A stretch of DNA of 64,000 bases from an uncultured Pseudomonadota bacterium. GTDB taxonomy: Bacteria > Pseudomonadota > Alphaproteobacteria > Rs-D84. A program made the position numbers and the translations under genes. The stretch covers positions 6,130 to 70,129 of the forward strand of contig CASDTC010000002.1 of assembly GCA_949283535.1 (NCBI GenBank), in the 5' to 3' direction. A model generated the notes under the pieces. It was not told where the DNA came from, did no database searches, and saw only the letters and a program-made list of their open reading frames with translations. Below, piece by piece: positions 17,008 to 64,000 of the stretch (positions are counted from its first letter, which is position 1; each line of letters opens with the position of its first letter).

Positions 17008-17218
17008 TTATCATCGTGCGGGGCGCATCGCGACCGTGGCGATCCAGTTATAATAGAGTCGCGCATATGCGCGTGCATTATTTACTGGATTGCCGCGCTA
17101 CGCTCGCAATGACAAGTTAGTGATGTGGGGCATAATTGACTGGATTGCTTCGTTTCACTCGCAATGACAAGGGTATGTGTATTAACTGGATTGCCGCGCT
17201 GCGACGCGCATGACAGGT
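17008..17218. repeat. stacked palindromic hairpin repeats (GCGACCGTGGCGATCCAG and CTGGATTGC..CGCAATGACAAG types)
   Basis: Four consecutive hairpin units. The first 60 nt are nearly identical to 58975-59030 and related to 59920-59960. Confidence 0.85.
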
Positions 17219-35938: not shown

Positions 35939-36697
35939 TTATATTGCGCGAACAACACGGCAAAACACAACACCATATACGGATTTTGCACCGGCATTTA
36001 CCAATACACGGCGCAATTCAGAAAATGTCGCCCCAGTCGTCATAACATCATCAACCAATAATATATTCCGACCACGAATTTTGTCTGGATTAATAACAGT
36101 GAAAACGCCATGAATATTTTCGGCGCGTTGCGCCGCATTTTTATGCCCCATGTCTGGACGGTAAAGACGATGAACACTGTCCACATCCATTGGGACCCCA
36201 AACACATGTGCAATTGGACGCGCCAGTAATGCCGCCTGGTTATAACCACGATGAAATAACCGACGCCATGCCAATGGAACTGGCATAACAATATCTGGGG
36301 AAATATCAGTATCACGCAATGCCCATATCATTGCACGCGACATGAATCGTGCATTCTTTATTCGACCGGCATGTTTAAACGGCAGAACTGCGCCACGCGC
36401 AGAATCATCGTATGTACACGCCGCACGAATTAAATCCAACACGCATCCACCAGATGCACAATTTGGACACAATGCCGCGTTATCAAAATCCAGATTGGCT
36501 GGAAAAGGATAGCCACAGCGCGAACATTTTGGATTACTAATCCAATTGAACGCATTCCAACAATCACCACATAATTCACCATGTGTCGACACTGGCATAC
36601 CACATAACGGGCATGATGACGGGAATAAAAATTCTATTGATTTTTGTGAAAATCTGGTTGCGATGTTAAAAATATTATGTGCGATTTGCATTACCAC
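35939..36697 (-). CDS. comF: ComF-family protein (phosphoribosyltransferase fold)
   Basis: N-terminal Cys clusters (CPLCG...CGDCW, CSRCG..., CPNC) and the PRT motif ILLVDDVMTTGATF are present. Confidence 0.8.
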   Translation of the reverse strand: MVMQIAHNIFNIATRFSQKSIEFLFPSSCPLCGMPVSTHGELCGDCWNAFNWISNPKCSRCGYPFPANLDFDNAALCPNCASGGCVLDLIRAACTYDDSARGAVLPFKHAGRIKNARFMSRAMIWALRDTDISPDIVMPVPLAWRRLFHRGYNQAALLARPIAHVFGVPMDVDSVHRLYRPDMGHKNAAQRAENIHGVFTVINPDKIRGRNILLVDDVMTTGATFSELRRVLVNAGAKSVYGVVFCRVVRAI

Positions 36698-38118: not shown

Positions 38119-38191
38119 AATTTCCTTTCCTTCCTGCAACTATCATAGAACAAATGACGAATCGCACGCAAGTGGAAAAATGCATCTGATA

Positions 38192-48110: not shown

Positions 48111-49400
48111 ATGTTTTTATTCAAACGCACATTTTTTTATGCACTGCGGCACATTGTATTAATGGCAATGTGTTTTGTATTTATTCCGTCTGTTACATTT
48201 GGGGCGGACAAAAGTATTGTTGATGCATTAAACCTGGCGCCAATTATACCAACCGTTCTGGATGCATTAATGACCATTGCATCGGGCGGGTATGAATTCT
48301 TTGTCGGAAACGGCGATGGAATTATTTACATATTTGTCTGGGGATTTCTGGCGGTATCAATGGTGTTGTATTTATTAAAAATGTATTTCCCAAAACTGTG
48401 GGTGTCTTTTTTCGGCTTTTCGGGTGGCGGCGAAATGGCAGATGGCATCAGCGGGTTTACAATCGCAACAAATTTGTTAAAGCCCGGCATTCGTGCAATT
48501 ATTGCCGCCGTGGTATTATTACAATTAAAGCCCGTGTATTTAACAGAATGGCTGGTTAATCCATTTTTACAATTCGGGGCAATTTATACAGAAAGTTTGA
48601 CCAATACAATAAACGATGTCGCAGGCAGTGCGCCAAAAATTGAATGTCCAGAATCCGTTCTGGACCAGGGATGGATTTCAAAAGAAAGTTGTGAATTCTT
48701 GGTTCAACCCGTATCAGAAATATCACATGTAAATAACCAGGTTATCAAACGCGGATTTGATTTTATAAATACTGGATTGCGCGGATTAATAACATTGGTG
48801 CCACATGGTGGCGAAGATTTCTTGAACCTGGTCACAGGGGTATTATTAGTATTCACATTTGTTTCCAGCAATCTGTTTATGGCGTTGTTAATTATCCAGG
48901 CAATATTTAATTTTGGAATGGCACTGATTTTATATCCGTTCCAAGTATTGGCATATGTCGTAAAGCCCAGTGACAAATGGTTTGATATATGGCCAGCATT
49001 TGGCGGTATTACCAAGGCGTTGCAAAAACTGGTTATAACCATGATTGCATGCGCGTTTATTTTAATCGTTAATATTGCTGTTATAAAATCTTTATTCCAA
49101 TGGTCGTCATCTGTATTCGTTGTCGCCGCGGGTGGTGCCGCGTCATCAAATGTCCCCCAGGTTGCACACAGCGCAATGGGATTTGGGCAACATTCTATAT
49201 TATGGCTGTCAGCAATACTGACATTCTATTTAATGTTGCGCATATTTAAATTAACACGCGAACAACTGGACAGATATGTCGGCAGCGGTATGGATAAACT
49301 GTATAACCAGGTTATCAGTGATTCTAAAATTATGACAAAGAATGTTAAAAATATCGGCACAACTGTTGGTAAAGCATTGGGGTGGATTAAAAAGAAATGA
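48111..49400 (+). CDS. VirB6/TrbL-like polytopic membrane protein, paralog 2
   Basis: 429 aa with a signal/TM, then ..PTVLDALMTIASGGYEFF...VSMVLYLLKMYFPKLW and 6 or more TM helices. Its stop overlaps the next start (ATGA). Confidence 0.5.
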   Translation: MFLFKRTFFYALRHIVLMAMCFVFIPSVTFGADKSIVDALNLAPIIPTVLDALMTIASGGYEFFVGNGDGIIYIFVWGFLAVSMVLYLLKMYFPKLWVSFFGFSGGGEMADGISGFTIATNLLKPGIRAIIAAVVLLQLKPVYLTEWLVNPFLQFGAIYTESLTNTINDVAGSAPKIECPESVLDQGWISKESCEFLVQPVSEISHVNNQVIKRGFDFINTGLRGLITLVPHGGEDFLNLVTGVLLVFTFVSSNLFMALLIIQAIFNFGMALILYPFQVLAYVVKPSDKWFDIWPAFGGITKALQKLVITMIACAFILIVNIAVIKSLFQWSSSVFVVAAGGAASSNVPQVAHSAMGFGQHSILWLSAILTFYLMLRIFKLTREQLDRYVGSGMDKLYNQVISDSKIMTKNVKNIGTTVGKALGWIKKK

Positions 49401-50581
49401 ACGGATTTATGAATTCTTTGATTGATTCAAGTGTTCAGTGCTGGGGCTGTCCGATATTTGACCGGCTGTTCCAGATTGTGTCAAATGCCGCCGCCGCAGT
49501 GTATGATCAATTCGTTATTTTCTGTGCAATTATTTTCTGTGTATTATTTGCGTTTGTTGTACTGAATGCCGTATGGCAAAATATCAAGGGTGGCGTATCT
49601 GACCCGTGGTATCAAAAATCATTAAAGCCGTTAATTATAAATTCACTGGTATCATTGGCATTTTTAAGTCTGGGGGTTTATTTGCCGCGCTTTGTTTCAT
49701 CGGTTACATTTGAACCGGTTACAAATATCGCACTGGTTTATACACAAAGCATGTTGCAAACAAATCCAGAAACCGTAAATGAAAAAGTTCACTATCAGCC
49801 AATGGAAATATCTGATGATGGGTTCTTTCGCCCACAGTTGCGCGACAGTATTATATTATTAATGAAAACAACCATTACACAATTCCAATCATATATGAAA
49901 CTGGGGATTGCTGTTATGGACAAGGCTTTCTCATTAGACGCGCTGTTGGGCATCGGTGCACTGATTAAACACATTATTCTGTTCTTTATCGGATTATATT
50001 TGTTTTACGGATTTTTTAAATTATTTATACGGTTCTGTTTTTATTTTGCAGATATTATTGTGGCGATGACATTCTTTGCATTTTTCTTTCCATTGTCGTT
50101 AATACTGGTTGCATTCAAGGGCGCAAATGCGCCATCATGGATTTCAAATCTGGGAAAAAATGTTGGAACCGGACAATTTAAAAAATTAATTAATGCAATT
50201 ATTGCGTTGGCAGCGGCGGTTTTAACATATACTGTTATAATGGTTATTATTGCAAAATTCTTTTCGGCGCCGGGACAAAGTGCTGCTGATATCATGCAAC
50301 TGATTACCAGTGGTGAAGTATTTGCGGGCGACCTGTCGGGGGATAATTTAGCCGTCATGACATTGGGGGGATGCATAATATTGGTTTATGTGTTAAACTT
50401 TATATATGACCAAATTCCCAATGTTACAAAAATGGTTCTGGATTCGTTCGGTGTATCAACAGAAAATCAATTGTCCGAACAATTGGCAAATGATGCAATG
50501 AAATTAACAACAAATATAATTGAAACAGTTAAAAAAACAGGACAAACAATTATATCGGGCGGAAAGAAAGACGATAAATGA
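49397..50581 (+). CDS. VirB6/TrbL-like polytopic membrane protein, paralog 3
   Basis: 394 aa. The N-terminal module is QCWGCPIFDRLFQIVSNAAAAVYDQF...VVLNAVWQNIKGGVSDPW, followed by multiple TM helices. ATGA overlaps occur on both sides. Confidence 0.5.
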   Translation: MNGFMNSLIDSSVQCWGCPIFDRLFQIVSNAAAAVYDQFVIFCAIIFCVLFAFVVLNAVWQNIKGGVSDPWYQKSLKPLIINSLVSLAFLSLGVYLPRFVSSVTFEPVTNIALVYTQSMLQTNPETVNEKVHYQPMEISDDGFFRPQLRDSIILLMKTTITQFQSYMKLGIAVMDKAFSLDALLGIGALIKHIILFFIGLYLFYGFFKLFIRFCFYFADIIVAMTFFAFFFPLSLILVAFKGANAPSWISNLGKNVGTGQFKKLINAIIALAAAVLTYTVIMVIIAKFFSAPGQSAADIMQLITSGEVFAGDLSGDNLAVMTLGGCIILVYVLNFIYDQIPNVTKMVLDSFGVSTENQLSEQLANDAMKLTTNIIETVKKTGQTIISGGKKDDK

Positions 50582-52014
50582 AAGCAACACTGATATCCAT
50601 TGCCATACGACTGTTAATGGGCGCAATCGCGTTGGGTATTGGTATATGGTATCTGTCATCATCAATCAGTGGCGCGGCAATAACATATACCAGTATGGAT
50701 GGATTTCTGAATGCAATTGGTGTTCAAAATGGTGATATTGCAACGGCAAATGGATGTTTCCTGTGTGGGTATATTTCGGAATTATTTGCTGTAATTGGAC
50801 GCGCCGCTGAATTTTTCTGGGACGCAATGGTTGATAATATATGGATATTGATGGCAATCGGTTTTGGATTGTTCTTGTTCATATATACGGCAAAATATAT
50901 CTTTGACGCGGCAAAAAAAACACAGACACTGGATACCAGTGAAAAGAAACTGGAATTAAAGGGCTGGTTCGATAAAGTATGGCGCCAGGGCGCACGCGTC
51001 ATGATTGTTGGCGCGTTAATGGGTGCGTTGGGCATGGGTGGAAATGCCGCGCTGAAAACTGTTGCAAATATAACCATTACCCCGGTGTTATTTGTTGGTG
51101 CAGAACTGTCCATGGCGGCGACCGGCGTTACAGACGCTGCAACATGTGGCGCATTGACCACAACAAATGAAACAGACGATGTTTTAAACCCAATTTTACA
51201 ACCGTTCATGTGCGTCATGGGCAATATTAACAGTGTTATGCTGGCGGGGGCGGCGGGCGGTTTTTCACTGATGAATTATGCATGGATGGGATTGGGCGGC
51301 GGCGTATTTACATGGATTGCCGGGCTGGCGTTAGTATTAATGTTCTTGGTCATCGGGTTTGATTTAGTGTTTCAGATTTTGTCTGTTGTGTTTAAATTAG
51401 TATTTCTGATTATATTCTTGCCGTTAATTTTGGCGGCGGCGGCGTTTGAACAGACATGGAAACTGGCGGATGGGGTTGTGAAAAATGCAATTAATATGCT
51501 GGTGCGAACGGCGGTGCAAGTTGTCGGAATAACTTTAAAGGTTTTGATTACATATGCCATCGTTGCATATGCGGCAGATGCATACTTTCCGGGACCACGC
51601 GATGGATACAGTGCGATATTGCCACCAATGATGGGGCAAACGGTTGAAAATCCAGATGCACAAACACTGTCTGTTATGAATGTATTTTCAACATGCGAAC
51701 GCGTTGCAACCACAAATGGGGAAATGGACGGGGATAAATTCAAAGACTGTTTCACCGCGCAAAAGGCGGCGGTTGAACGCGAATATCCGCATGCGTTTGA
51801 TTTTATGGATGACGGGTGGGATTTCTTGGTATTAATGTTTGGGATATTCTTGTTATATTTCTATGCGATTAAGCCAAAGGTGGATGGTATAATAACCGCC
51901 GGTGGCAAAGAACAATTTGACTTTGGCACATGGGCAAAGGGTCTGGGTAAAAAGATATGGTCGGCACCACAACAAATATTTGATGCGGTATCAAAGGCGG
52001 TTGGGAAAAAGTAA
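50578..52014 (+). CDS. VirB6/TrbL-like polytopic membrane protein, paralog 4
   Basis: 478 aa. The N-terminal module is GCFLCGYISELFAVIGRAAEFFWDAM...FLFIYTAKYIFDAAKK, followed by multiple TM helices. Confidence 0.5.
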   Translation: MKATLISIAIRLLMGAIALGIGIWYLSSSISGAAITYTSMDGFLNAIGVQNGDIATANGCFLCGYISELFAVIGRAAEFFWDAMVDNIWILMAIGFGLFLFIYTAKYIFDAAKKTQTLDTSEKKLELKGWFDKVWRQGARVMIVGALMGALGMGGNAALKTVANITITPVLFVGAELSMAATGVTDAATCGALTTTNETDDVLNPILQPFMCVMGNINSVMLAGAAGGFSLMNYAWMGLGGGVFTWIAGLALVLMFLVIGFDLVFQILSVVFKLVFLIIFLPLILAAAAFEQTWKLADGVVKNAINMLVRTAVQVVGITLKVLITYAIVAYAADAYFPGPRDGYSAILPPMMGQTVENPDAQTLSVMNVFSTCERVATTNGEMDGDKFKDCFTAQKAAVEREYPHAFDFMDDGWDFLVLMFGIFLLYFYAIKPKVDGIITAGGKEQFDFGTWAKGLGKKIWSAPQQIFDAVSKAVGKK

Positions 52015-52017
52015 TTT

Positions 52018-53307
52018 ATGAAAAAAATAAAATCTATCTTTGCCAAAATTATTATTGCCATTATGGCAATGGTGTTGATTTTACCAAATACGACATATGC
52101 GGCAACATCAAATTTACCAATGGCAGATGTTGGTGATTATGGCAATTGGGCAACGCCAGACAATATTGATTTATTTAAAACAGACATAACCCACGATATG
52201 GAACAGATGGAACCAAAACCAATTGTTTCAGACTATGTCCCGTTCGAGGCAAAAATTGGTCTGGCAATGATGAATGGTTTTTCAATTGTTGCCGAAGTGT
52301 TGGATTCTTCACTGGTGCGGTTTGCAATTATATTCATGATTATTGCGTATATTTTCTGGGCAATGTTTGAAGCATACAATATGATGAAAAACGGCGCCAG
52401 TGCAATGGATTTTGGTGTTAATCTGGTAAAAAAAGGCGGCGTTATATTAATCTGGATTATCATATTAAATTTCGGACCCGCCCAGGTTTTTATGTGGATT
52501 ATGGGTCCAATTGTCGGTGTTGGCACATATATGGCAGATTTAATCTTGAATGCAATTGCGGGCGCAATTGGCACAGAATTGCCCGATACATGCGCTGCAA
52601 TTCGCGACTATGCCGCGGCAAATACATCGGGTAATATGTTAATTGATGCAAATGCCGCCGCGGATATATTGTGCGTTCCAACGCGACTGTCTGGATTTTT
52701 TACAACAGCGGTGGTGGCGGGATGGAAATGGATGATTGCAGGTATTGGCACCAGCGCATTTACTGTACTGGTTGGCGCGACATTTATTGTTATATTTTTA
52801 TATACAGGGTTTAAGTTCTTGTTAATGGGGCTGGGCGTTATAATGGATTTGTTCTTGGGTGTTTTAATGTTGCCATTTACCGCGATTGCCGAAACGATTA
52901 ACAAAACATCATTAAAGGGTATCGTTGGCGATATATATAATGGATTTTTAGGATTATTTAAGCCGGAATCATTACAAAATCAAATCCAACGTTTCATAAA
53001 TGCAGCAATATATTTTGTATCATTATCGATTGTTATCGCCGTGTGTGCAGCATTGTTATCAGGCACAGTGGATGCAAATCTGGCGTCTGAAATTCCAACG
53101 CTGGAAAATGATGGGTTTATTATAACATTGTTGACGGGTTGTCTGGTTGCATATCTGGCAAATCGCGCCGACAGTATTGCAAAAGATTTGGGCGGCAGTG
53201 TTAATGACAGTTTTGGCAAGCAATTTGGCAATGATGTAAAAAAACTGGGGCAAAATGCATATGGATGGGGCAAGAAAGTCGTTAATATAATCAGAAAGAA
53301 AAAATAA
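52018..53307 (+). CDS. VirB6/TrbL-like polytopic membrane protein, paralog 5
   Basis: 429 aa with a signal peptide (..NTTYAAT). The module is ..FEAKIGLAMMNGFSIVAEVLDSS...IFWAMFEAYNMMKNG, followed by multiple TM helices and a Lys-rich tail. Confidence 0.5.
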   Translation: MKKIKSIFAKIIIAIMAMVLILPNTTYAATSNLPMADVGDYGNWATPDNIDLFKTDITHDMEQMEPKPIVSDYVPFEAKIGLAMMNGFSIVAEVLDSSLVRFAIIFMIIAYIFWAMFEAYNMMKNGASAMDFGVNLVKKGGVILIWIIILNFGPAQVFMWIMGPIVGVGTYMADLILNAIAGAIGTELPDTCAAIRDYAAANTSGNMLIDANAAADILCVPTRLSGFFTTAVVAGWKWMIAGIGTSAFTVLVGATFIVIFLYTGFKFLLMGLGVIMDLFLGVLMLPFTAIAETINKTSLKGIVGDIYNGFLGLFKPESLQNQIQRFINAAIYFVSLSIVIAVCAALLSGTVDANLASEIPTLENDGFIITLLTGCLVAYLANRADSIAKDLGGSVNDSFGKQFGNDVKKLGQNAYGWGKKVVNIIRKKK

Positions 53308-56219: not shown

Positions 56220-56258
56220 AAAAATCGGTATGCACAGTGCATACCGATGATTATTTTA
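56220..56258. terminator. bidirectional terminator hairpin
   Basis: AAAAATCGGTATGCAC-AG-TGCATACCGATGATTATTTT lies between convergent dnaQ and the 823-aa gene. Confidence 0.7.
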
Positions 56259-56268
56259 TGCATTTATA

Positions 56269-58740
56269 TTAATCAGACTGTAAAACACATATTCCATTTT
56301 GCAATACATACCCAGAATCACATACGCATGTGCCGTAATCGTTTCTGGATGCGTTCGTGCCACATGCCGCCAAACATTGACCATTCCATACTTCGTATCC
56401 AATATTGCAATAACATTTATCATTTACCATGCAATATGTATAATAAGGAATGCTGCCTCCACCCGGTACAATCCGATTCTCAGCTTTGCTTATACATTTA
56501 TTTGCAGTGGCTTTATAGGTAATATTTATAACATTATTAGTTTCTGTCCTGTAACTGGAATTATCTGGACATAGTAATGACTGATAGAACATTTCGGAAA
56601 TGCTTTCCAGACATTTGTCATCTTTGTGCCCATCACTTGTTACTGGGCAACTGGTTTGGTCATCTTTGAACACCGCATATGCGCATGTTAATGCCACATT
56701 GCGGCATGCACCACGCATAACATTATATACACTGCCGACACTGGCACTGGATGACCATGTGTTAACCTGGGTTACCTGTTGATTATAACAATTTGCGATA
56801 TCCAGAACGCAATTTGACGCATAATCTGATATTATCTGGCGCTGTGCCGCTTGGATATTAACCATTGCGCGTTGTACATAATTTACAACAACATCATTAT
56901 ATGGTAAATAATTACCGCGATCATCATATGTATATGCCTGGCATTTGTCCAGAACCGCACGACACAATCCTTCGTCTTGGGTTTCTTGTTTTGTGCCAAT
57001 TTTCTTTAACAGATATGCGGCAATACATGCGCCATTATTACCAACCCCATCATCATCATTACTGGGTACAGTGGCAGAACATGCTTTATCGTTAATTGCC
57101 ATAGAATATGAATTCTGTAAAAATCCTTTGTCTATATCCGCATTATTATAGCTGGTCATAAAATCGATAATTTTGGTTATATCCTGCCCCAATACAACAG
57201 AACCATTTTCATCAATATATGTCTTGGTCGGATCCAGACATTTTGTATAATCCTCGCCACAAACCATATCATCACGCATGCATTCGTCCAGTGCCGCCAT
57301 ACAGCCCTTGGCATCATATTGATTTTTATTTTCCAGAACCGCCAAACGCGCCTTTTGCAACATTAAATTCGCACTGCGAACATTGGAAACCAATGTTTCG
57401 TTCATTTTTTTCAATCCCTGTTCATATGAAATGCAATCACGGTCAATTGCCAGGTCATAATTTGCGGTTATTTGATCAATGTTTGCACCGGCTTCTTCGC
57501 ATTGATCCAGAATTGTTTTACAACGATTTTTTGCCGCATTGTACAGTTGTGTACCACGCATATTTGATAAATTACTGGTGAATCCCGTGGTCAAGAAATC
57601 CAAACTGAATAAATCCGCCGAATTCGATAAAAAATCCAAATCCATATCCAAACCAAACAATCCAGAATTTGATGAATAACTGGACGATGTACTGACCGGG
57701 TCGCGAATTAATTCTTCGATTTCTTCCAGCATGTTGCGTGTTTCTGTCGTATCCTTGGCACCAGACAGTGCTTCTTCTGCCTCGGTCGCGGACATAATGG
57801 CATCGATTTCTTCTTCGGTTAATCCGACATAGCGGATACGCTGTGCCACTTCGTTTAATTGATTATTGGCATCGGTAACGGCTTCTTCAACATCTGTATA
57901 ATCGCTTAAATTTGCCGAACAAGAACAACGTTTTTGATTTGAATCAATAACCGAACAAAATTGATCCATACAATCATTATACTGTTGCTGGCACGATGAA
58001 TTTAAATCAGAAACCAAATCCATGCGTTCCTTGGCGGCGGCAATTGTTTCAGATGTAACCGTTGTATTCCCAGATGTTGTTGCACGCGCGGAAACAGAAC
58101 GCGCTTCGTTCGCGATGTTTGACCCAGTTTGAATATCAGTACCGGCAATGGTGGCACGACCGCCAACCTCTGCGGTTGATGGACGCAGCGATAATCCCGC
58201 GCGGCGAACCGTTGGATTGTTATTAATACTGGCAGATTCAACCCGGGCGTTGCGACCAACCGTATTTACCGTCGCATTCAAATTATCACGCGCAGAATTT
58301 ACATGTGTTGCACCCGCTGCGCGCGACACGCTGCCCCCGCTGCGCGTGGTGGATGTACCACGCGATGTTGCACCGGTATCATTGCCTAAATCTAAAACAC
58401 GCGAACCAACACGAACAATATCTGAATCAGATGCAGTTGTATTTGTTGTTGTGGCAGCACGACTGACCACACTGCGCGAATCTGTGGCATTACGTGCGGT
58501 ATTATCAGACGCATCATCATTATTTATCGTTTCAGATTGAACCGTTTTTTGAACCGATTGTGTTATTGTTGTGCGTGATGCATTCGGACGTGTTGTTGAT
58601 GCACCACGCGATGTCGTATTTGATACAGTCGCATCCGTTGATGTACTGGACGGGATTGCGCGCGATATAGACGAACCGTCTGCGAACGCAAACGGCGCAG
58701 TAAATGCGATTAAGAAAAAGCACAATGGCAATCTTCTCAT
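56269..58740 (-). CDS. large secreted protein: Ser/Thr/Arg-rich N-terminal region plus cysteine-rich C-terminal region (about 32 Cys), paralog A
   Basis: 823 aa. The signal peptide is ..FTAPFAFADG. About 230 low-complexity residues follow (TSRGASTTR, VVSRAATTT, SVSRAAGAT). Then come YNDCMDQFCSVIDSNQKRCSC, coiled-coil-like stretches, many CxnC pairs and an EGF-like end (CYCNIGYEVWNGQCLAACG..GTCVCDSGYVLQNGICV). Confidence 0.7.
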   Translation of the reverse strand: MRRLPLCFFLIAFTAPFAFADGSSISRAIPSSTSTDATVSNTTSRGASTTRPNASRTTITQSVQKTVQSETINNDDASDNTARNATDSRSVVSRAATTTNTTASDSDIVRVGSRVLDLGNDTGATSRGTSTTRSGGSVSRAAGATHVNSARDNLNATVNTVGRNARVESASINNNPTVRRAGLSLRPSTAEVGGRATIAGTDIQTGSNIANEARSVSARATTSGNTTVTSETIAAAKERMDLVSDLNSSCQQQYNDCMDQFCSVIDSNQKRCSCSANLSDYTDVEEAVTDANNQLNEVAQRIRYVGLTEEEIDAIMSATEAEEALSGAKDTTETRNMLEEIEELIRDPVSTSSSYSSNSGLFGLDMDLDFLSNSADLFSLDFLTTGFTSNLSNMRGTQLYNAAKNRCKTILDQCEEAGANIDQITANYDLAIDRDCISYEQGLKKMNETLVSNVRSANLMLQKARLAVLENKNQYDAKGCMAALDECMRDDMVCGEDYTKCLDPTKTYIDENGSVVLGQDITKIIDFMTSYNNADIDKGFLQNSYSMAINDKACSATVPSNDDDGVGNNGACIAAYLLKKIGTKQETQDEGLCRAVLDKCQAYTYDDRGNYLPYNDVVVNYVQRAMVNIQAAQRQIISDYASNCVLDIANCYNQQVTQVNTWSSSASVGSVYNVMRGACRNVALTCAYAVFKDDQTSCPVTSDGHKDDKCLESISEMFYQSLLCPDNSSYRTETNNVINITYKATANKCISKAENRIVPGGGSIPYYTYCMVNDKCYCNIGYEVWNGQCLAACGTNASRNDYGTCVCDSGYVLQNGICVLQSD

Positions 58741-58955: not shown

Positions 58956-58960
58956 ATTAA

Positions 58961-59150
58961 TCACGCAGGGAGCAACGCGACCGTGGCGATCCAGTTATAA
59001 TAGAGTCGCGCATACGCGCGCGCATAACCGACTGGATTGCCGCGCTGCGCCGCGCATGACAAGAGAAAGTGTATGTGGGGTGGGATGACACACGAAAGAA
59101 GTTCGCACCGTTGGCGCGGACAACAATTGTACTTTTCACTCTGAACTTTG
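58961..59150. repeat. hairpin repeat modules plus an inverted CAAAGT box module
   Basis: GCGACCGTGGCGATCCAGTTATAATAGAGTCGCGCATA is shared with 17030-17070. CTGGATTGCCGCGCTGCGCCGCGCATGACAAG follows. The region ends with the inverted CAAAGTTCAGAGTGAAAAGT box next to the rpmA terminator. Confidence 0.85.
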
Positions 59151-59180
59151 AAAAAACGGGGCAAATGCCCCGTATATTTT
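59151..59180 (-). terminator. Rho-independent terminator after rpmA
   Basis: Minus strand: ACGGGGC-ATTT-GCCCCGTTTTTT. This is the same CGGGGC/GCCCCG hairpin type as at 2033, 29725 and 63149. Confidence 0.8.
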
Positions 59181-59447
59181 TTATTTTGCATCGGATTCTG
59201 GAATAACAGAAACGGTCTTTCTGTCGCCCAAACCCTTTTTAAATTTAACAATGCCTGCGATTTTCGCAAACAGTGTATGGTCTTTGCCCATACCAACATT
59301 CAACCCTGGGTGTACCGATGTCCCGCGTTGGCGAATAATAATATTGCCTGGGATAACACGGCTGCCACCTGATTTTTTGACGCCCAGTCGACGTCCCGCA
59401 GAATCGCGCCCATTGGATGTTGCTGAACCAGCTTTCTTATGTGCCAT
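59181..59447 (-). CDS. rpmA: 50S ribosomal protein L27
   Basis: [38 protein letters not shown] is canonical L27. Confidence 0.95.
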
Positions 59448-59493
59448 AATTAAACTCCTTTGATTTCTGATTTAATATTCAACCAGAAATTTA

Positions 59494-59793
59494 TTAACCC
59501 TTGATTTCTGTGATTTTCAATACGGTTATATATTGACGATGCCCGTGTGTACGACGATAGTTTTGACGGCGTTTTTTCTTGAACACCAAAACCTTGTCCC
59601 CGCGTTTTTGTTCCAAAACCTGGGCGACAACCTTTGCCCCGTCAACGAATGGGGTTCCAACCTGGTCGTCCAGCATTAATACCTGGTCAAATTCGACCGT
59701 GCCATCGGCATTCAGGCGTTCAACCTTTACAATATCGCCCGCCTGGACCCGATATTGTTTGCCACCGGTTTGAAAGATTGCAGTATTGCTCAT
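59494..59793 (-). CDS. rplU: 50S ribosomal protein L21
   Basis: The internal ATG at 59793 gives [20 protein letters not shown]..., the canonical L21 start. The upstream 35 codons of the track ORF are probably not translated. Confidence 0.9.
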
Positions 59794-59914: not shown

Positions 59915-60100
59915 ATTGTCATCGCGCGGGGATCACAGCGACCGTGGCGATCCAGTGGGTAAAGATGTCGCACGCAGTCGCGTGCGTGCATAAATGCACT
60001 GGATTGCTTCGTTTCACTCGCAATGACAAGGCGAGTGTTTATTTTGCAAGGACAAGGGTGTGTGCATTAACTGGATTGCCGCGCTACGCATGCAATAATA
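59915..60100. repeat. hairpin repeat modules
   Basis: GTCATCGCGCGGGGATCACAGCGACCGTGGCGATCCAGTG, CACTGGATTGCTTCGTTTCACTCGCAATGACAAG (identical to 17138-17170) and AACTGGATTGCCGCGCTACGCATGCAAT. Confidence 0.85.
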
Positions 60101-60143
60101 CAATAAAAAACATCGCCCATGCGGGCGGTGTTTTTGGTGTTTG

Positions 60144-62360
60144 TTAATTACCCTCGTTTTCGCGGTAATCGTTTACGTCCCATTCACGAATTTCTTCTAC
60201 AAAGTTGCTTAACAAGCACTGTTCACGCAAATTCGCCGAATTACATTTTGTTGCGTCTTCGCCAATACACAATGGTGTTTGTGTATCTGTTACGGTCGCA
60301 CCATTTACACCATTCAATATTTCATTCAATGTTACAATATTGCGGCATGTATTTTGTTCATAGTCTTGGCTATTATTACATGTTTCGCTGTCTTGCGTGT
60401 CAATAATTGCGCGGAATTGTGATGTTGACGGATTGCAAATCATTGTTTCATAACAATGTGGAACATTTGCAATTTGTGCGCAATATGTTCTGATACGCGA
60501 TGTAGACCAGTTTTCTGAATCTGCCTGGGTTTCATAACAATCCAATATTTCACTTAAACATTCGTTAAAGTTTGTACCTGCCGCGGTTGCTTCTGACAAA
60601 ATTGTTTCTTGTTCTTCTTGATAGAATTCCAGACGCTTTTGCTGTAATGCCTGTTGCGCGGCGACCTTTTGATAGCCGATATTTTGTGCGGTTGTGCTTA
60701 ATTGTTCACCATATGCATCACAGTCCGCATTCGCATCCAGCGCATATTTCTGCATAATGCTGCGACGTGCGTCGGCAACTGGTCCACGCAGGTCGGCATA
60801 TGGATCGCCCGATGCCGATGTATAGCCAAAGCATGTTGCCGAATTAGACGCCGTATATCCCGTATTTGGTTCAATGAAATTTAATTCATATGTACCAGTA
60901 TTCGATACGGTTATATAACTGTTATAATTATACGGGCATTGTGAACGACCATTACCGCACTTAGTTCCACCAGACGGCGGTGTGCCACACGCTTCATAAA
61001 TTCCGTTAAAGCAGGAATCCAATACGCGGTTGCAAACATTATTATGTGCATATTCAAACAGTTCGTATCCCCATGTTTCCGCCAGGGAATCTTTCAGATT
61101 TTCACTGTCTGCGAATGCACCACTGACCCCTGCCAAATTGCCAACAACATTTGTCAATTCATCGAATGCGGATGTTAACGCATCTTCATCATCCGTCAGA
61201 ATGGTTAATGTTTGTTCTTTTGCGTCCGCCCATGATTGCAGGGACGCCAAGATATCGCTGCTGGTGCCGTCAATATTGTCTATATTAAATCCGAAATTAT
61301 TTCCAGTTTCTGTACAATATGATGGCTGATTACATGGACTTTGCCCATTGCCCTGACCATCGAACAAACCATGATTATAGCACCAATCTTGCGCCTGGGT
61401 TGAATTTGTACCGTATTGATCGGTCACTTCTTTCCATGATACACAATTCATAACTTTTTCTGCATCTGTTAATTGGAATGCTTCACTGATATCTTTACCC
61501 TTGGTGGCGATTAACAATGCCAATTCACCAGATACCTTTATCAATTCTTCGTTTGCCTGTTCCAGGGCGGCTTCGGCCTCTGCAAATGCCTTGACACGAC
61601 CGGCGCATGCGCAACGACGTTGTGCCGCGTTACGCGCGGTGCAGATTTCGTCCATACACGCATAGTATGATTCCATGCAATTGTTGTATGCATCCGCAGA
61701 AATTAATCCGGTTGTCGAATCGATAATGTTTGAATAGTTTCCCGTATACAATCTGTTTTGCAGATATGTATATGTTGCGGAATTTGTTGCAGCCTTGCTG
61801 CCACGGATTGCACTGCCCTGTAATGAAACGCGGGCGGTTGTACCGGCGCGGGATACGACATTACGATTTGTTGTTGCGCGCGATGCATTTGCAACCGTGC
61901 CACGCGATACGACATTACGTCCACTGGTTGTGGCGGTGCCACGCGATACTGTATTTGCCGTTGTGCGTGATGCGGATACACTGGGGCGCGCAGATGTCGT
62001 TGTCGCACGCGATGCGGTTGTTGTCGCCGTACGCGTTGTTGTGGTTGGTGTCGCCGTTGTACGCGCCGTTGTGCCACGCGATGTAACCGCACGCGATGCA
62101 GTTGCAGTGGTCGTGGTACCACGCGATACGGTATTTGTTGCCGTACGACGCGATGTCGCATTCGTACTGCGCGGTGACGCGGTGCCAGCACGCGTTGCCT
62201 GGGGTCCAGCAACAACAGTTGATGTTGCAATTGGTGCAATTGGATCTGCAAACACGGCACGAATTGACACCAATGTCGAACAAACCAGAAACGCCCCCGC
62301 CAACAAGAACACCGTTCCCATTGCATTTTTGCAATAATCTGCGAAATTACGGCTTTTCAT
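60144..62360 (-). CDS. large secreted protein: Thr/Ser/Arg-rich N-terminal region plus cysteine-rich C-terminal region (about 26 Cys), paralog B
   Basis: 738 aa. The signal/TM is ..LVCSTLVSIRAVFA. About 170 low-complexity residues follow (TATNTVSRGTTTTATASRAVTSRGTTARTT...). Then comes YNNCMESYYACMDEICTARNAAQRRCAC plus a coiled coil, matching the motif in the 823-aa paralog. Confidence 0.7.
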   Translation of the reverse strand: MKSRNFADYCKNAMGTVFLLAGAFLVCSTLVSIRAVFADPIAPIATSTVVAGPQATRAGTASPRSTNATSRRTATNTVSRGTTTTATASRAVTSRGTTARTTATPTTTTRTATTTASRATTTSARPSVSASRTTANTVSRGTATTSGRNVVSRGTVANASRATTNRNVVSRAGTTARVSLQGSAIRGSKAATNSATYTYLQNRLYTGNYSNIIDSTTGLISADAYNNCMESYYACMDEICTARNAAQRRCACAGRVKAFAEAEAALEQANEELIKVSGELALLIATKGKDISEAFQLTDAEKVMNCVSWKEVTDQYGTNSTQAQDWCYNHGLFDGQGNGQSPCNQPSYCTETGNNFGFNIDNIDGTSSDILASLQSWADAKEQTLTILTDDEDALTSAFDELTNVVGNLAGVSGAFADSENLKDSLAETWGYELFEYAHNNVCNRVLDSCFNGIYEACGTPPSGGTKCGNGRSQCPYNYNSYITVSNTGTYELNFIEPNTGYTASNSATCFGYTSASGDPYADLRGPVADARRSIMQKYALDANADCDAYGEQLSTTAQNIGYQKVAAQQALQQKRLEFYQEEQETILSEATAAGTNFNECLSEILDCYETQADSENWSTSRIRTYCAQIANVPHCYETMICNPSTSQFRAIIDTQDSETCNNSQDYEQNTCRNIVTLNEILNGVNGATVTDTQTPLCIGEDATKCNSANLREQCLLSNFVEEIREWDVNDYRENEGN

Positions 62361-62551
62361 AAAATTCTCCCCTGTAATCCGGAAACGCCCGGAAAACCCG
62401 ATATTTGACGATACGATAACAGTATAATCGCATGTCTATTTTGTTTAATTATAACATTTTTGTGGCGGGCTGTAAATAAGAAAACCGGGCATTTACAATG
62501 CGGAATATTTTTATATTTATTATTTTTCATCGTGCGTGATATAATTATGGC

Positions 62552-63112
62552 ATGAAAAAAATTGTTGCATTATTGTTCTGCGTTATTTGTGTGCCGGCAT
62601 TGGCAGACGGTGATACAAATCCAATGTTTGGCGAAAACACACAAAACTCTATCATGCTGTATGCCGCCCAGGGAACAGGTGCGGGTTCGCTGTTTAAATT
62701 GGTTGATCCGTTTTTGTGGGATTTTGAACCATTGACAATGGCAATGTTGCAATACAGTCAACCGGTATCAATATTCAGATTACCATCACGAATTAATTTA
62801 ACACTGGTTCAGAATTTTGGTTATGACAGTGGACGCGGATTATCGTTCTTTGCCGGCGGGATATCATGGGATGTTGCGTTGGTAAATTGGCGCGGTTTTT
62901 ATATTGGCGTTGGTATCGGTCCATATATGCGCGATTCCCGCGATCGATATGTGCAAAGCAGATTAGTATTCGGGGAACGATTTTTTATCGGGAAAAACAT
63001 TGGCGACAGATGGCGCATCGAATGGTTTACCCAACATTTTTCAAATGGTGATTTTACAGAAATAAACCGCGGATTTAACTTTACCGGTCTGGCGGTGGGA
63101 TATAGTTTTTAG
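62552..63112 (+). CDS. acyloxyacyl hydrolase / lipid A 3-O-deacylase (PagL)-like outer membrane protein
   Basis: The signal peptide is ..CVPALADG. Beta-strand periodicity is visible. The C-terminal ..HFSNGDFTEINRGFNFTGLAVGYSF matches the PagL-like family ending. Confidence 0.55.
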   Translation: MKKIVALLFCVICVPALADGDTNPMFGENTQNSIMLYAAQGTGAGSLFKLVDPFLWDFEPLTMAMLQYSQPVSIFRLPSRINLTLVQNFGYDSGRGLSFFAGGISWDVALVNWRGFYIGVGIGPYMRDSRDRYVQSRLVFGERFFIGKNIGDRWRIEWFTQHFSNGDFTEINRGFNFTGLAVGYSF

Positions 63113-63148
63113 CGCAATATTATTTTTCACGCCCCGGGGATGATAAAT

Positions 63149-63233
63149 AAAAAAACGGGGCGAATGCCCCGTGTTTTCAAAGTACAGGGTTCACAGTGCA
63201 AAGTTCAAATATTGTGTCGCTGCGCGATAAGTT
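63149..63233. repeat. composite repeat module (terminator + CAAAGT boxes + GTCGC..GCGA hairpin)
   Basis: AAAAAACGGGGCGAATGCCCCGTGTTTT, then CAAAGTACAGGGTTCACAGTGCAAAGTTCAAATATTGTGTCGCTGCGCGATAAG. The order and sequence are as at 2033-2120 and 29018-29095. Confidence 0.85.
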
Positions 63234-64000
63234 TTATTTCCAATTACTTGGTATTTGATCATAATCCGACAGACCGGTTGCGTTTTCATATGCAAAAAGA
63301 CCCACGGTGGTACCGGACCATATTTCATACAGATACTGTCCATTTATTCGCGCGGACGGTCCGGTAAGTGATGTGCAATCGGTAAATGTTTCGTAAAACA
63401 TCCATCCTGCCGCTGGTCCCGATATTCCCGCGAACAGGTTTTCCGGAATGCTTTGTAATTGGGTACATTTGGCAAATGTGCCGCCAAACATATACTCTGC
63501 CGGTGCGCCTTGGATGCCGGCAAACAGGTCGGCGGGGATTTCTGTTATTGCTGTGTTGGCAAATGTCCCATAAAACATACTCTCTGCTGGGGTAATTGTC
63601 CCGCTAAACAACGGACCTTCTATCGTGGTCAGGTTTGGGCAATAGCTAAATGTATTACTAAACATCATCTCCGCGCCATTACTATTCAGTTCACCAAACA
63701 GATTCGCTGGAACACTGGTTATCGCGGTCCTAGCAAACATACTGGCAAACATACTCTCTGCTGGGGTCAGTGTCCCGCTGAACAATGGTCCATCTATTGT
63801 GGTCAGGTTTGCACAATTGCTAAATGTATCGTGAAACATTCTCGATGCGCCATCACCATTTAATGTACCAAACAGATTTGCGGGGACACTGGTTATGCCA
63901 GATTGTTCAAACATGCTTTCAAACATACTCTTTGCTGGGGCGCCTTGGATACCCGCAAACAGGTCGGCGGGGATTTCTGTTATTGCGCTATTGGCAAATG
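63234..64000 (-). CDS. LRR-like 29-residue-repeat secreted protein, paralog 2 (5' part beyond the window)
   Basis: The reading frame stays open past the ATG at 63926 to the window end (..FAGIQGAPAKSMFESMFEQSGITSVPANLF..). The repeats and the C-terminus GPSARINGQYLYEIW...GLSDYDQIPSNWK match the gene at 29751-31898. Confidence 0.75.
   Translation of the reverse strand, partial: FANSAITEIPADLFAGIQGAPAKSMFESMFEQSGITSVPANLFGTLNGDGASRMFHDTFSNCANLTTIDGPLFSGTLTPAESMFASMFARTAITSVPANLFGELNSNGAEMMFSNTFSYCPNLTTIEGPLFSGTITPAESMFYGTFANTAITEIPADLFAGIQGAPAEYMFGGTFAKCTQLQSIPENLFAGISGPAAGWMFYETFTDCTSLTGPSARINGQYLYEIWSGTTVGLFAYENATGLSDYDQIPSNWK

What the first reader, a model, noticed from the sequence alone, without database searches (positions are those of the whole stretch)
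56269..58740. Paralogous giant secreted proteins: disordered Ser/Thr/Arg-rich region plus a cysteine-rich alpha/coiled-coil body, bracketing rplU-rpmA
The 823-aa and 738-aa (60144-62360) proteins share the same plan:
- a signal peptide;
- 170-230 residues of S/T/R/N/A low complexity;
- a signature Y-N-x-C-M-x(3-5)-C-x(2-4)-C...(K/R)RC(S/A)C followed by a coiled-coil-like acidic helix (EEAVTDANNQLNEVAQRI / AEAALEQANEELIKVSGEL);
- several hundred residues in which Cys occurs mostly in pairs spaced 6-12 residues apart (about 32 and about 26 Cys in total).

The 823-aa protein ends in EGF-like C-x-C repeats. I do not recognise the family. Such cysteine density in a secreted bacterial protein suggests an extracellular, disulfide-stabilised adhesin or effector.

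Both genes are flanked by the hairpin-repeat modules. One is also flanked by sRNA copy C.
Basis: partly seen in the sequence, partly recalled or inferred. Interest (0 to 1): 0.7.

Follow-up and report, generated by a model that had tools for sequence, protein, structure and literature searches.

The report
Unnamed disulfide-rich secreted protein family
Two conserved genes of an uncultured, small-genome gut bacterium (Candidatus Enterousia) encode exported, disulfide-stapled helical proteins of a family and fold that no database recognises, most likely surface proteins used to bind a partner or host.

Summary
Both ORFs are real: 56269-58740(-), 823 aa, and 60144-62360(-), 738 aa, on either side of rplU-rpmA. 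The window comes from a Candidatus Enterousia-like gut alphaproteobacterium (order Rs-D84, genomes under 1 Mb).

Both genes are intact and syntenic in every related MAG locus long enough to show them (56 and 38 orthologues). dN/dS is 0.01-0.11 over the conserved parts.

Every orthologue has an even number of mature cysteines (22-92 and 24-48), and cysteines are lost in pairs. This indicates that all are disulfide-bonded.

The two proteins are homologous only over the N-terminal ~300 residues: signal peptide, Ser/Thr/Arg-rich disordered region, and a C-x6-CMD-x2-C-x9-C-x-C plus helix module. That module defines a superfamily of at least 437 clusters (50% identity).

Sampled members come only from Enterousia, Proteobacteria or Rickettsiales-labelled MAGs. 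Long members carry C-terminal arrays of small Cys-rich modules; some also have Listeria-Bacteroides (Flg_new) repeats.

Pfam, NCBIfam, PHROGs and PDB sequence searches found nothing. A confident AlphaFold model (body pLDDT 85-98) has no Foldseek match.

Best reading: a lineage-specific surface or extracellular binding protein with a conserved disulfide-stapled helical stalk and a variable tip. The function is inferred, not shown.

The parts
56269..58740 (-). CRP823 gene (823 aa): exported cysteine-rich protein
   Evidence: ORF. There are 1029 homologues, none with a name or a Pfam domain. It is intact in 56 loci.
58681..58740 (-). CRP823 signal peptide (aa 1-20, MRRLPLCFFLIAFTAPFAFA|DG)
   Evidence: It is the only hydrophobic segment in the protein and has an AFA|D cleavage-type site. 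Assigned by heuristic only.
58294..58680 (-). CRP823 variable Ser/Thr/Arg-rich low-complexity region (aa 21-149)
   Evidence: Composition. Column conservation is 0.11-0.53. dN/dS is 0.24-0.31.
58033..58293 (-). CRP823 conserved, predicted-disordered Arg-motif segment (aa 150-236, ..VNTVGRNARVE..VRRAGLSLRPSTAEVGGRA..)
   Evidence: Column conservation reaches 0.8-0.86. Together with the module, dN/dS is 0.05-0.09. pLDDT is below 50.
57736..58032 (-). CRP823 shared module (aa 237-335): C250-x6-C257MD-x2-C262-x9-C272-x-C274 followed by an acidic helix
   Evidence: hhalign between the two families gives E 3e-12. All five Cys are invariant in 56/56 orthologues. pLDDT is 70-94 and the segment is helical.
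56521..57735 (-). CRP823 body (aa 336-740): acidic bundle of long helices with invariant Cys (six C-x6-C motifs), after a disordered acidic linker at aa ~351-389
   Evidence: AlphaFold pLDDT is 85-98 over aa 399-734, with helices of 44 and 50 residues. Cys invariance. Net charge is -23.
56272..56520 (-). CRP823 variable C-terminal tail (aa 741-823) with two EGF-like C-x-C modules (aa 776-789 = nt 56374-56415; aa 805-818 = nt 56287-56328)
   Evidence: Two PROSITE EGF_2 pattern hits. Predicted small beta-hairpins. dN/dS is 0.30-0.37. 48/56 orthologues have 1-6 such pattern hits.
60144..62360 (-). CRP738 gene (738 aa): second exported cysteine-rich protein
   Evidence: ORF. There are 1219 homologues; the only source names are 'hypothetical' or 'uncharacterized'. 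It is intact in 38 loci.
62247..62360 (-). CRP738 signal peptide (aa 1-38, ..TVFLLAGAFLVCSTLVSIRAVFA|DP)
   Evidence: Single hydrophobic segment at aa 13-31. Assigned by heuristic only.
61836..62246 (-). CRP738 cationic Ser/Thr/Arg low-complexity region (aa 39-175) with repeated (T/V)(V/T)SR(G/A) motifs
   Evidence: Net charge is +17 and S+T is 43%. Internal repeats have hhalign probability 83-90%. The motif occurs 8 times.
61431..61835 (-). CRP738 conserved pre-module segment and shared module (aa 176-310): C228-x6-C235MD-x2-C240-x9-C250-x-C252 plus helix
   Evidence: dN/dS is 0.01-0.03. Cys are invariant in 38/38 orthologues. Alignment A4.
60147..61430 (-). CRP738 acidic Cys-rich body (aa 311-738)
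   Evidence: Net charge is -35 over aa 311-690 and -7 over aa 691-738. Cys are invariant. Only a weak similarity patch to the CRP823 body was found. No structure model was made for this protein.
62448..62476 (-). Promoter-like site upstream of CRP738 (TTTACA-17-TATAAT with TG)
   Evidence: Matches 11 of 12 consensus positions. This is a consensus match only.
60114..60127 (-). Terminator-like hairpin just after the CRP738 stop codon
56224..56248 (.). Hairpin between the convergent dnaQ and CRP823 genes (probable bidirectional terminator)
59181..59793 (-). rplU (59494-59793) and rpmA (59181-59447), with their own terminator at 59156-59173. They separate the two genes here but not in all relatives.
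   Evidence: Pfam hits. Terminator. In L028, L033 and L041 the two CRP genes are directly adjacent.

Best explanation
The two genes encode members of a lineage-specific superfamily of Sec-exported, fully disulfide-bonded proteins of Candidatus Enterousia / order Rs-D84. These are gut alphaproteobacteria with genomes under 1 Mb and a proposed partner-dependent lifestyle.

Shown:
- Each protein has a signal peptide and a Ser/Thr/Arg-rich disordered region in which the Arg positions and a pre-module segment are conserved.
- Next comes a five-cysteine module with an acidic helix, then an acidic body. In CRP823 the body is a bundle of long helices.
- All cysteines are paired.
- The CRP823 type ends in a fast-evolving tail of small EGF-like Cys modules whose length varies. 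In relatives this tail grows into long arrays and acquires Listeria-Bacteroides (Flg_new) repeats.

Inferred:
- The protein folds oxidatively outside the cytoplasm.
- The conserved helical part forms a rigid, protease-resistant stalk or base.
- The basic disordered N-terminus tethers the protein to the cell envelope (LPS or peptidoglycan) or to a partner protein.
- The variable C-terminal tip binds a ligand on a partner cell, the host surface or mucus.
- CRP738 is a sister protein with the same N-terminal plan and a different, more conserved body. It may be a co-operating or structural subunit.
For: - Real, selected genes. They are intact in all 56 and 38 orthologous loci, in conserved order pagL-CRP738-rplU-rpmA-CRP823-dnaQ-uvrD. 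dN/dS is 0.01-0.11 in the conserved parts.
- Export. Each has a single N-terminal hydrophobic segment with an AxA-type site and no other transmembrane segment.
- Disulfides. Nearly all Cys are invariant. Mature Cys counts are even in 56/56 and 38/38 orthologues although totals vary 22-92 and 24-48. 99/113 full-length cluster representatives are even with a crude cut. C554 and C572 are lost together, and C327 and C343 are lost together in L048.
- Superfamily. 437 clusters have E<=1e-3, and the module always lies 150-300 residues from the N-terminus. Of the 150 listed, 116 have the CRP823-type body and 21 the CRP738-type body.
- Extracellular-type variable tip. There are two EGF_2 pattern hits in CRP823 and 1-6 in 48/56 orthologues. 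Flg_new occurs in 7/29 long relatives and Ephrin_rec_like in 2/29. Cys-module arrays are separated by Pro-rich linkers. One relative is named 'InlB B-repeat-containing protein' by NCBI. The tail has dN/dS 0.30-0.37 and varies in length.
- Fold. In the AlphaFold model the body has pLDDT 85-98 and is a bundle of long helices followed by beta-hairpins.
- Lifestyle. Rs-D84 genomes lack sugar, amino-acid and peptide transporters. They were proposed to depend on a partner and to encode many unknown membrane or surface proteins (PMC12306168).
- Tether idea. The VV(S/A)R-type motif is concentrated in three exported proteins of the window, the third being an OmpA_C-like protein (NCBIfam E 0.007).
Against: - No evidence of surface localisation. 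There is no recognisable outer-membrane anchor, lipobox, autotransporter barrel, or type I or type IX secretion signal.
- No secretion system for folded periplasmic proteins was identified in the window.
- There is no binding or expression data.
- The CRP738 body is highly conserved and has no variable tip, which fits a structural or periplasmic role as well as an adhesin role.
- The EGF-like tail did not reach any Pfam EGF model.
- The tether role of the N-terminal region is speculation from charge and motif distribution. In CRP823 the net charge is only about +6.
- Reduced genomes keep gene order, so the conserved synteny says little about function.
Confidence: 0.5

Rival explanations
1. Periplasmic or envelope structural proteins. 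They would form a disulfide-stabilised, possibly cross-linked, layer that stiffens or organises the envelope of a reduced-genome bacterium. This is functionally like the chlamydial cysteine-rich envelope proteins OmcA/OmcB. The basic N-terminus would contact peptidoglycan or the outer membrane.
For: - They are core, single-copy, syntenic genes under strong purifying selection.
- No surface-anchor or secretion signal beyond the Sec signal peptide is seen.
- CRP738 has no variable tip.
- The same VV(S/A)R low-complexity motif occurs in an OmpA_C-like, presumably peptidoglycan-binding, protein.
- CRP738 is always paired divergently with a PagL-like outer-membrane barrel gene.
Against: - An even Cys count in every orthologue fits intramolecular pairing and does not call for intermolecular cross-links.
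- The organism has a normal peptidoglycan synthesis set (PBP1, MraY, MurG, FtsW).
- The CRP823-type tail expands into Flg_new and EGF-like arrays, which are typical of exposed proteins.
- There is no Pfam match to the chlamydial families.
Confidence: 0.2
2. Accessory components of a type IV secretion or conjugation-like apparatus. An example would be a TraN-like cysteine-rich outer-membrane or tip adhesin that stabilises cell-cell contact, working with the neighbouring array of five polytopic membrane proteins and the VirB10-like gene.
For: - A TrbI/VirB10-like gene lies at 73-1395.
- Five tandem 5-7-TM membrane proteins sit two genes away from CRP823 in nearly all loci, and directly abut it in L027.
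- F-plasmid TraN is a signal-peptide-bearing protein with about 22 conserved Cys (from my own knowledge).
Against: - No Pfam TraN hit.
- The five membrane proteins match no VirB6/TrbL model in Pfam, NCBIfam or PHROGs, and a PDB profile search with an alignment of two of the five types (window 46753-48042 and 49397-50581, with orthologues) found nothing.
- dnaQ and uvrD lie in between.
- A distant CRP823-type member (P0352) sits in an unrelated context between an epimerase gene and rpoA-rplQ.
- Each CRP has its own promoter-like and terminator-like sites.
Confidence: 0.1
3. Secreted effectors or toxins. They would be elongated helical proteins that insert into or act on partner-cell membranes, with the C-terminal modules serving as receptor-binding domains.
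For: - The architecture is long helices followed by a variable receptor-binding-like tail.
- The best, non-significant, Foldseek neighbours include ClyA, pyocin S5 and Tc-toxin subunits.
Against: - All those matches have E>1 and TM-scores at or below 0.21 by either normalisation.
- There are no amphipathic or hydrophobic helical hairpins.
- No immunity-like small gene is adjacent.
- A single-copy core gene with conserved synteny is unlike typical toxin loci.
- The heavy disulfide stapling argues against large conformational change.
Confidence: 0.07
4. The cysteines bind metals (zinc or iron-sulfur) rather than forming disulfides. The proteins would then be periplasmic redox or metal-storage proteins of an anaerobe.
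For: - The organism is an anaerobe reported to lack respiratory chains (PMC12306168).
- No Dsb-like gene is seen in the window.
Against: - Strict even parity and pairwise loss of Cys are the signature of disulfides.
- The recurring spacing is C-x6-C on helices, not CxxC or CxxCH-type metal motifs.
- There are no His partners and no Pfam metal-binding domain.
Confidence: 0.05

Closest known systems
Modular bacterial surface proteins with Listeria-Bacteroides (Flg_new / InlB B-repeat) and EGF- or ephrin-receptor-like Cys-rich repeats
   Same: - Signal peptide and a variable-length C-terminal array of small repeat modules.
- Flg_new and Ephrin_rec_like domains are actually found in longer superfamily members.
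- NCBI names one relative 'InlB B-repeat-containing protein'.
   Different: - The two window proteins themselves have no Flg_new domain.
- The conserved N-terminal module and the helical Cys-stapled body have no counterpart in those families.
- No LPXTG, LRR or known anchor is present.
Chlamydial cysteine-rich envelope proteins OmcB/OmcA
   Same: Both are exported proteins with many Cys in a reduced-genome, host-dependent Gram-negative. The basic N-terminal region is reminiscent of the OmcB glycosaminoglycan-binding N-terminus (from my own knowledge). Both have been given envelope or adhesin roles.
   Different: - No sequence or Pfam similarity.
- CRP823's body is predicted to be helical.
- Even Cys parity points to intramolecular pairs.
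- The organism has peptidoglycan synthesis genes.
F-type conjugation protein TraN
   Same: Both are signal-peptide-bearing outer-envelope proteins with about 20 or more conserved Cys. TraN acts as a cell-cell contact adhesin with a variable tip (from my own knowledge).
   Different: - No TraN Pfam hit.
- No F-type T4SS genes in the window.
- Different predicted fold.
- The genes are chromosomal core genes rather than part of a transfer operon.
Helicobacter cysteine-rich proteins (Hcp; Sel1-like repeats)
   Same: Both are exported alpha-helical proteins in which Cys pairs at a fixed short spacing staple helices.
   Different: - Hcp proteins have regular ~36-residue repeats with C-x7-C (from my own knowledge). 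Here C-x6-C motifs are irregularly spaced along long helices.
- No Sel1 Pfam hit.
Cysteine-rich helical surface proteins of gut and blood parasites (trypanosome invariant surface proteins / VSG-type bundles, Plasmodium DBL domains, Giardia VSPs)
   Same: Both are elongated disulfide-stabilised helical bundles or Cys-rich arrays exposed in protease-rich environments. 5vtl and a DBL domain appear among the weak Foldseek neighbours.
   Different: The matches are not significant (E>3; TM-scores at or below 0.33 by either normalisation). There is no sequence relationship. The resemblance is convergent at most.

Membership tests
New 'Enterousia cysteine-rich protein' superfamily (defined here) | N-proximal module C-x6-C-M-D-x2-C-x9-C-x-C followed by a helix, 150-300 residues after the N-terminus | tested here: met
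   Both window proteins align over the module with all five Cys, the Tyr and the Met-Asp conserved. A profile of the module finds 437 clusters.
New 'Enterousia cysteine-rich protein' superfamily (defined here) | Signal peptide plus Ser/Thr/Arg-rich disordered leader | tested here: met
   hhalign aligns residues 4-325 of CRP823 with 20-304 of CRP738.
New 'Enterousia cysteine-rich protein' superfamily (defined here) | Even number of conserved, paired cysteines in the mature protein | tested here: met
   Even in 56/56 and 38/38 orthologues.
EGF-like domain | Match to a Pfam EGF-type model | tested here: not met
   No EGF family appears at E<=1 in hmmscan of either protein.
EGF-like domain | PROSITE EGF_2 signature C-x-C-x(2)-[GP]-[FYW]-x(4,8)-C and a beta-hairpin structure | tested here: met
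   Two pattern hits in CRP823, at residues 776 and 805, and none in CRP738. Short beta-strands are predicted there with pLDDT 87-94. The pattern covers only the C-terminal half of an EGF domain.
Listeria-Bacteroides repeat (Flg_new) surface proteins | Flg_new (PF09479) domain | tested here: not met
   Absent from both window proteins. Present in 7/29 long relatives.
TraN (F-type T4SS) | Match to the Pfam TraN model | tested here: not met
   No hit at E<=1 against the whole of Pfam-A.
TraN (F-type T4SS) | Location within an F-type transfer operon | tested here: not met
   The neighbours are rplU, rpmA, dnaQ, uvrD and a pagL-like gene. The only T4SS-like gene in the window is a VirB10/TrbI-like ORF 55 kb away.
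Chlamydial OmcB/OmcA cysteine-rich outer membrane proteins | Match to the corresponding Pfam models | tested here: not met
   No hit at E<=1.
Sel1-like repeat / Helicobacter Hcp | Sel1 Pfam repeats with regular C-x7-C pairs | tested here: not met
   No Sel1 hit. The recurring spacing is C-x6-C at irregular intervals.
Any family with a solved structure | Significant sequence or fold match to a PDB chain | tested here: not met
   phmmer and hmmsearch against PDB give a best E of 0.07-0.5. Foldseek with the pLDDT-78 model gives a best E of 1.3. BFVD gives a best E of 0.14.
Lipoproteins / autotransporters / other known surface-anchoring classes | Lipobox Cys at the signal-peptide cleavage site, or a beta-barrel translocator domain | tested here: not met
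   The Cys in the signal regions (C7; C10 and C27) are not preceded by a lipobox (read directly from the sequence). No barrel domain is found in Pfam or in the model of CRP823 residues 150-823.
Disulfide-bonded exported proteins dependent on DsbA/DsbB | Presence of DsbA/DsbB (or VKOR) in the genome | not testable with these tools
   Only the 64-kb window and ~20-kb syntenic loci were available. No thioredoxin-like exported ORF was found in the window.

The most novel reading that the evidence does not exclude
These proteins are the attachment apparatus by which obligately partner-dependent Rs-D84 gut alphaproteobacteria hold on to their partner cell or host surface. They are built on a previously unseen disulfide-stapled helical fold. 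Their 11-46 disulfides per protein imply an unrecognised oxidative-folding route in a strict anaerobe that lacks a respiratory chain. The five unclassifiable CxxC-bearing membrane proteins next door are candidates for that route or for export.
Probability: 0.25. Interest if true: 0.75.

Novelty: new variant of a known kind. Interest (0 to 1): 0.5.

Why it matters
Candidatus Enterousia and the Rs-D84 order are widespread in human, livestock, bird and termite guts. They have never been cultured, have genomes under 1 Mb, and are thought to live off a partner. How they attach to or communicate with that partner is unknown.

In such a small genome, two adjacent core genes spend about 4.7 kb on large, strongly conserved, fully disulfide-bonded exported proteins. 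These proteins have a fast-evolving tip, and no database or solved structure recognises them.

That makes them prime candidates for the interaction interface. They could also serve as bait for identifying the partner, as lineage-specific markers or antigens, and as a test case for disulfide formation in anaerobes without quinone-linked respiration.

If they turn out to be ordinary envelope proteins, the result is still a new, well-delimited protein family with a predicted new fold.

Tried and rejected
- Family and structure searches all came back empty for both proteins. This covers Pfam, NCBIfam and PHROGs scans, PDB sequence searches with single sequences and with the module profile, and Foldseek against PDB and BFVD.
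- The first AlphaFold run used a shallow alignment (>=67% identity). It gave pLDDT 58.7 and was not usable for the module. It was replaced by a run with 98 diverse sequences.
- Whole-length paralogy is rejected. Profile-profile comparison supports only the N-terminal ~300 residues plus one weak patch.
- A third paralogue nearby was looked for and not found in the window or in 56 loci.
- A T4SS link was examined. Five searches failed to identify the five neighbouring membrane proteins as VirB6/TrbL, although the PDB profile search covered only two of the five types. A distant family member has a different genomic context.
- Lipoprotein and Tat signals are rejected on sequence. There is no lipobox, and the RR at residues 2-3 of CRP823 is not conserved.
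- The idea that hairpin-repeat modules or an sRNA are functionally tied to these genes is rejected. The repeat is dispersed (4 copies). The similar hairpins at 59152 and 63151 are terminator-like. Rfam finds only two tRNAs in the window.
- The first parity counts, made with crude signal-peptide cuts, gave spurious odd numbers for CRP738. They were corrected with an alignment-based cut.
- The literature holds nothing on these proteins.
Full report
**What is there**

The two ORFs are exactly as reported: 56269-58740(-) encodes 823 aa (CRP823) and 60144-62360(-) encodes 738 aa (CRP738). Between them lie rpmA (59181-59447) and rplU (59494-59793) (Pfam E 1e-35 and 3e-35).

Each CRP gene looks like its own transcription unit (consensus matches only):
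- CRP738 has a strong promoter-like site at 62476-62448 and a terminator-like hairpin at 60127-60114.
- rplU-rpmA has a terminator at 59173-59156.
- CRP823 ends at a hairpin (56224-56248) that it shares with the convergent dnaQ.

**Organism**

A scan of species-representative genomes with CRP823 returned 56 loci. All are gut MAGs labelled Candidatus Enterousia, uncultured Alphaproteobacteria or proteobacterium, or Rickettsiales. One further contig is binned as Ruminococcus. The hosts include human cohorts, chicken, sheep, buffalo, deer, horse, rabbit and mouse.

Published work places Enterousia in the order Rs-D84 (PMC12306168). These genomes are under 1 Mb and lack a TCA cycle, respiratory chains and standard nutrient transporters. 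A partner-dependent lifestyle has been proposed for them.

The window also carries YidC, LspA, PBP1, MraY, MurG, FtsW, an AcrB/TolC-type efflux pair, a PagL-like barrel, ComEC and a VirB10/TrbI-like gene. The cell is therefore a diderm with peptidoglycan.

**Are the genes real and selected?**

tblastn and phmmer against the loci show full-length intact orthologues of CRP823 in 56 loci (716-1301 aa) and of CRP738 in 38 loci (700-1033 aa). That is every locus whose contig reaches the gene. The gene order pagL-CRP738-rplU-rpmA-CRP823-dnaQ-uvrD-(five membrane proteins) is kept across genomes whose CRP823 is only 46-84% identical.

In three loci the two CRP genes are directly adjacent and rplU-rpmA lie elsewhere. 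'Bracketing' is therefore not essential.

Nei-Gojobori dN/dS against three relatives:

| Region | dN/dS |
|---|---|
| Conserved pre-module segment plus module | 0.01-0.09 |
| Bodies | 0.04-0.11 |
| N-terminal low-complexity regions | 0.23-0.31 |
| CRP823 tail | 0.30-0.37 |

**Anatomy**

Each protein has a single N-terminal hydrophobic segment ending in (A/V)FA|D. About 200 residues rich in T, S, A, R and N follow.

- In CRP738 this region has net charge +17 and contains internal repeats built on (T/V)(V/T)SR(G/A).
- In CRP823 the first part is variable. Residues 150-236 are highly conserved, yet AlphaFold predicts them as disordered. They look like a conserved linear-motif region with invariant arginines.
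- The same VV(S/A)R-type motif occurs in a third exported protein of the window, 36691-38139. That protein has a weak OmpA_C-like C-terminus.

The shared module comes next: C-x3-Y-x2-C-M-D-x2-C-x9-C-x-C followed by an acidic helix.

The rest is acidic (net -23 for CRP823, -35 for CRP738) and Cys-rich, with C-x6-C recurring 8 and 4 times. CRP823 ends in two matches to the PROSITE EGF_2 pattern.

**Paralogy**

- BLASTP finds 25% identity over about 200 residues (E 5e-6).
- hhalign with orthologue alignments aligns residues 4-325 of CRP823 with 20-304 of CRP738 (probability 98%, E 1.5e-14).
- Beyond that there is only one weak patch: NCVLDIANCYNQQ..NTWSSS against ECLSEILDCYETQ..NWSTS (E 0.003).

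The two proteins share an N-terminal third. Common ancestry of the bodies is possible but not demonstrated.

**Disulfides**

Nearly every cysteine is invariant across orthologues. When cysteines are counted after an alignment-defined signal-peptide boundary, all 56 CRP823 and all 38 CRP738 orthologues have an even number. The totals range over 22-92 and 24-48.

The sequences are related, so the binomial p-values overstate independence. Even so, twelve different totals occur and all are even.

Cysteines also disappear in pairs:
- C554 and C572 are lost together in three CRP823 sequences.
- C327 and C343 are lost together in the L048 CRP738.

A cruder count on 113 full-length cluster representatives gives 99 even. 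Even parity in exported proteins is the established genomic signature of disulfide bonding (Dutton et al. 2008, from my own knowledge).

How an anaerobe without respiratory chains oxidises 13-16 cysteine pairs per protein is unexplained. No Dsb-like ORF lies in the window, and the rest of the genome could not be examined.

**Family extent**

Each protein has more than 1000 homologues in the 5.8-billion-protein set. None has a Pfam domain, and the only source names are 'hypothetical' or 'uncharacterized'.

A profile of the shared module, searched against 1.84 billion 50%-identity representatives, found 437 clusters with E<=1e-3 and 267 with E<=1e-10. Full-length members among the 150 listed are about 600-2338 aa, and in most of them the module lies 150-300 residues from the N-terminus.

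Of the 150 listed clusters, 116 carry the CRP823-type body, 21 carry the CRP738-type body, and the rest are fragments. Ten clusters were looked up; the three that carry any source name are all Enterousia, Proteobacteria or Rickettsiales MAG proteins, 'hypothetical' or 'InlB B-repeat-containing'.

Long members extend the C-terminus with up to about 120 cysteines in small modules separated by Pro-rich linkers. Of 29 long members, 7 have Flg_new (Listeria-Bacteroides) repeats and 2 have ephrin-receptor-like repeats.

A distant CRP823-type member lies in a different genomic context, between an epimerase gene and rpoA-rplQ.

**Structure**

A first model from a shallow alignment was poor (pLDDT 58.7). 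A second model covered residues 150-823 and used 98 diverse sequences. It reached mean pLDDT 78 and pTM 0.61:

| Residues | Prediction |
|---|---|
| 150-230 and 351-389 | disordered |
| 233-349 (module) | helical, pLDDT about 70-94 |
| 399-734 (body) | pLDDT 85-98; dominated by long helices (two of 44 and 50 residues) with short connecting elements |
| about 776-820 | short beta-hairpins |

Foldseek found nothing significant in PDB (best E 1.3; every TM-score normalised by query length at or below 0.13) or in BFVD (best E 0.14). I had no access to coordinates, so Cys-Cys distances were not checked.

**Interpretation**

- Shown: these are exported, fully disulfide-bonded, strongly conserved core proteins of a lineage-specific superfamily. 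CRP823, the one modelled, has an unrecognised helical fold. The CRP823 type has a rapidly evolving modular tail made of repeat types typical of extracellular proteins.
- Inferred: the proteins are at the surface or extracellular, and they bind something through the variable tip. The conserved helical part would act as a protease-resistant stalk. The Arg-bearing disordered N-terminus would act as a tether.

I put this reading at about 0.5. The rivals are:
- an envelope-structural (OmcB-like) role, 0.2;
- a T4SS-associated contact protein, 0.1;
- a secreted toxin or effector, 0.07;
- metal binding, 0.05.

**Comparison with known families**

Comparison with TraN, OmcB, Sel1/Hcp and EGF shows functional analogies at most. 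Every membership test by profile failed. The only positive is the short EGF_2 pattern.

**Verdict**

The finding is a well-delimited, uncharacterised protein superfamily with a predicted new fold in an uncultured, ecologically widespread lineage. It is interesting mainly as the likely interaction interface of a partner-dependent gut bacterium, and for the open question of how its disulfides are made.

Noticed in passing
window 46753-48042(-), 48111-49400(+), 49397-50581(+), 50578-52014(+), 52018-53307(+): Five adjacent genes (four in tandem, one divergent) encode polytopic membrane proteins of 394-478 aa. Each has a signal-like N-terminus, 5-7 predicted TM segments and a ~100-residue loop. Three carry an N-proximal CxxC (SCWSCQ, QCWGCP, GCFLCG). 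Pfam, NCBIfam and PHROGs find nothing for any of them, and a PDB profile built from two of the five types also finds nothing. Only the first and third are detectably related to each other. The array is conserved next to uvrD-dnaQ-CRP823 in nearly all related MAGs and abuts CRP823 directly in L027. The layout recalls the tandem VirB6 paralogues of Rickettsiales, but that was not supported by any search.
   Followed up: partly
window 73-1395(+): A VirB10/TrbI-like protein (Pfam TrbI E 9e-17; NCBIfam T4SS_VirB10 and ComB10 below their cut-offs). It suggests a scattered type IV secretion or competence system. A ComEC gene lies at 11068-13014.
   Followed up: partly
window 36691-38139(-): A 482-aa exported protein has a Ser/Thr/Arg/Val-rich low-complexity region containing the same VV(S/A)R motifs as the two cysteine-rich proteins. 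It has a weak OmpA_C-like C-terminus (NCBIfam E 0.007), no Cys and no Pfam hit.
   Followed up: partly
window 17030-17048, 29468-29486, 58977-58995, 59938-59956 (larger element about 58960-59050 and 59921-60096): A dispersed intergenic repeat contains ACTGGATCGCCACGGTCGC and a partner inverted segment (GCAATCCAGT). It has four copies in the window (0.02 expected by chance). Two copies lie upstream of CRP823 and of rplU. It looks like a REP- or MITE-like element.
   Followed up: partly
window 59127-59182 and 63146-63201: Two near-identical G+C-rich terminator-like hairpins (AAAAACGGGGCAAATGCCCCGT, one mismatch) sit within a 56-nt inverted repeat. One follows rpmA and the other follows the pagL-like gene.
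   Followed up: no
window 62552-63112(+): A PagL-like small outer-membrane barrel gene (Pfam PagL E 7e-13, partial coverage) is divergently paired with CRP738. In most related loci where a pagL match is detected it lies within about 200 bp of CRP738, and it stays adjacent where CRP738 has moved away from CRP823 (L027). It could be a functional partner, or the pairing could be mere synteny.
   Followed up: partly
window 29751-31898(-) and 63234-63926(-), continuing to the window end: These are large exported proteins made of ~29-residue 'ITSIPADLFAG..' repeats (weak PARCEL/TIGR02167 hits). Tandem DNA repeats of 174 nt lie at 63521-63868. They are probably BspA-like surface proteins, a second class of candidate adhesins.
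   Followed up: no
L031 10001-13906; L056: The CRP823 orthologue in L031 is 1301 aa with 92 Cys, a greatly expanded tail. L056 carries a CRP823 fragment on a contig binned as 'uncultured Ruminococcus sp.', which is probably a binning error.
   Followed up: no
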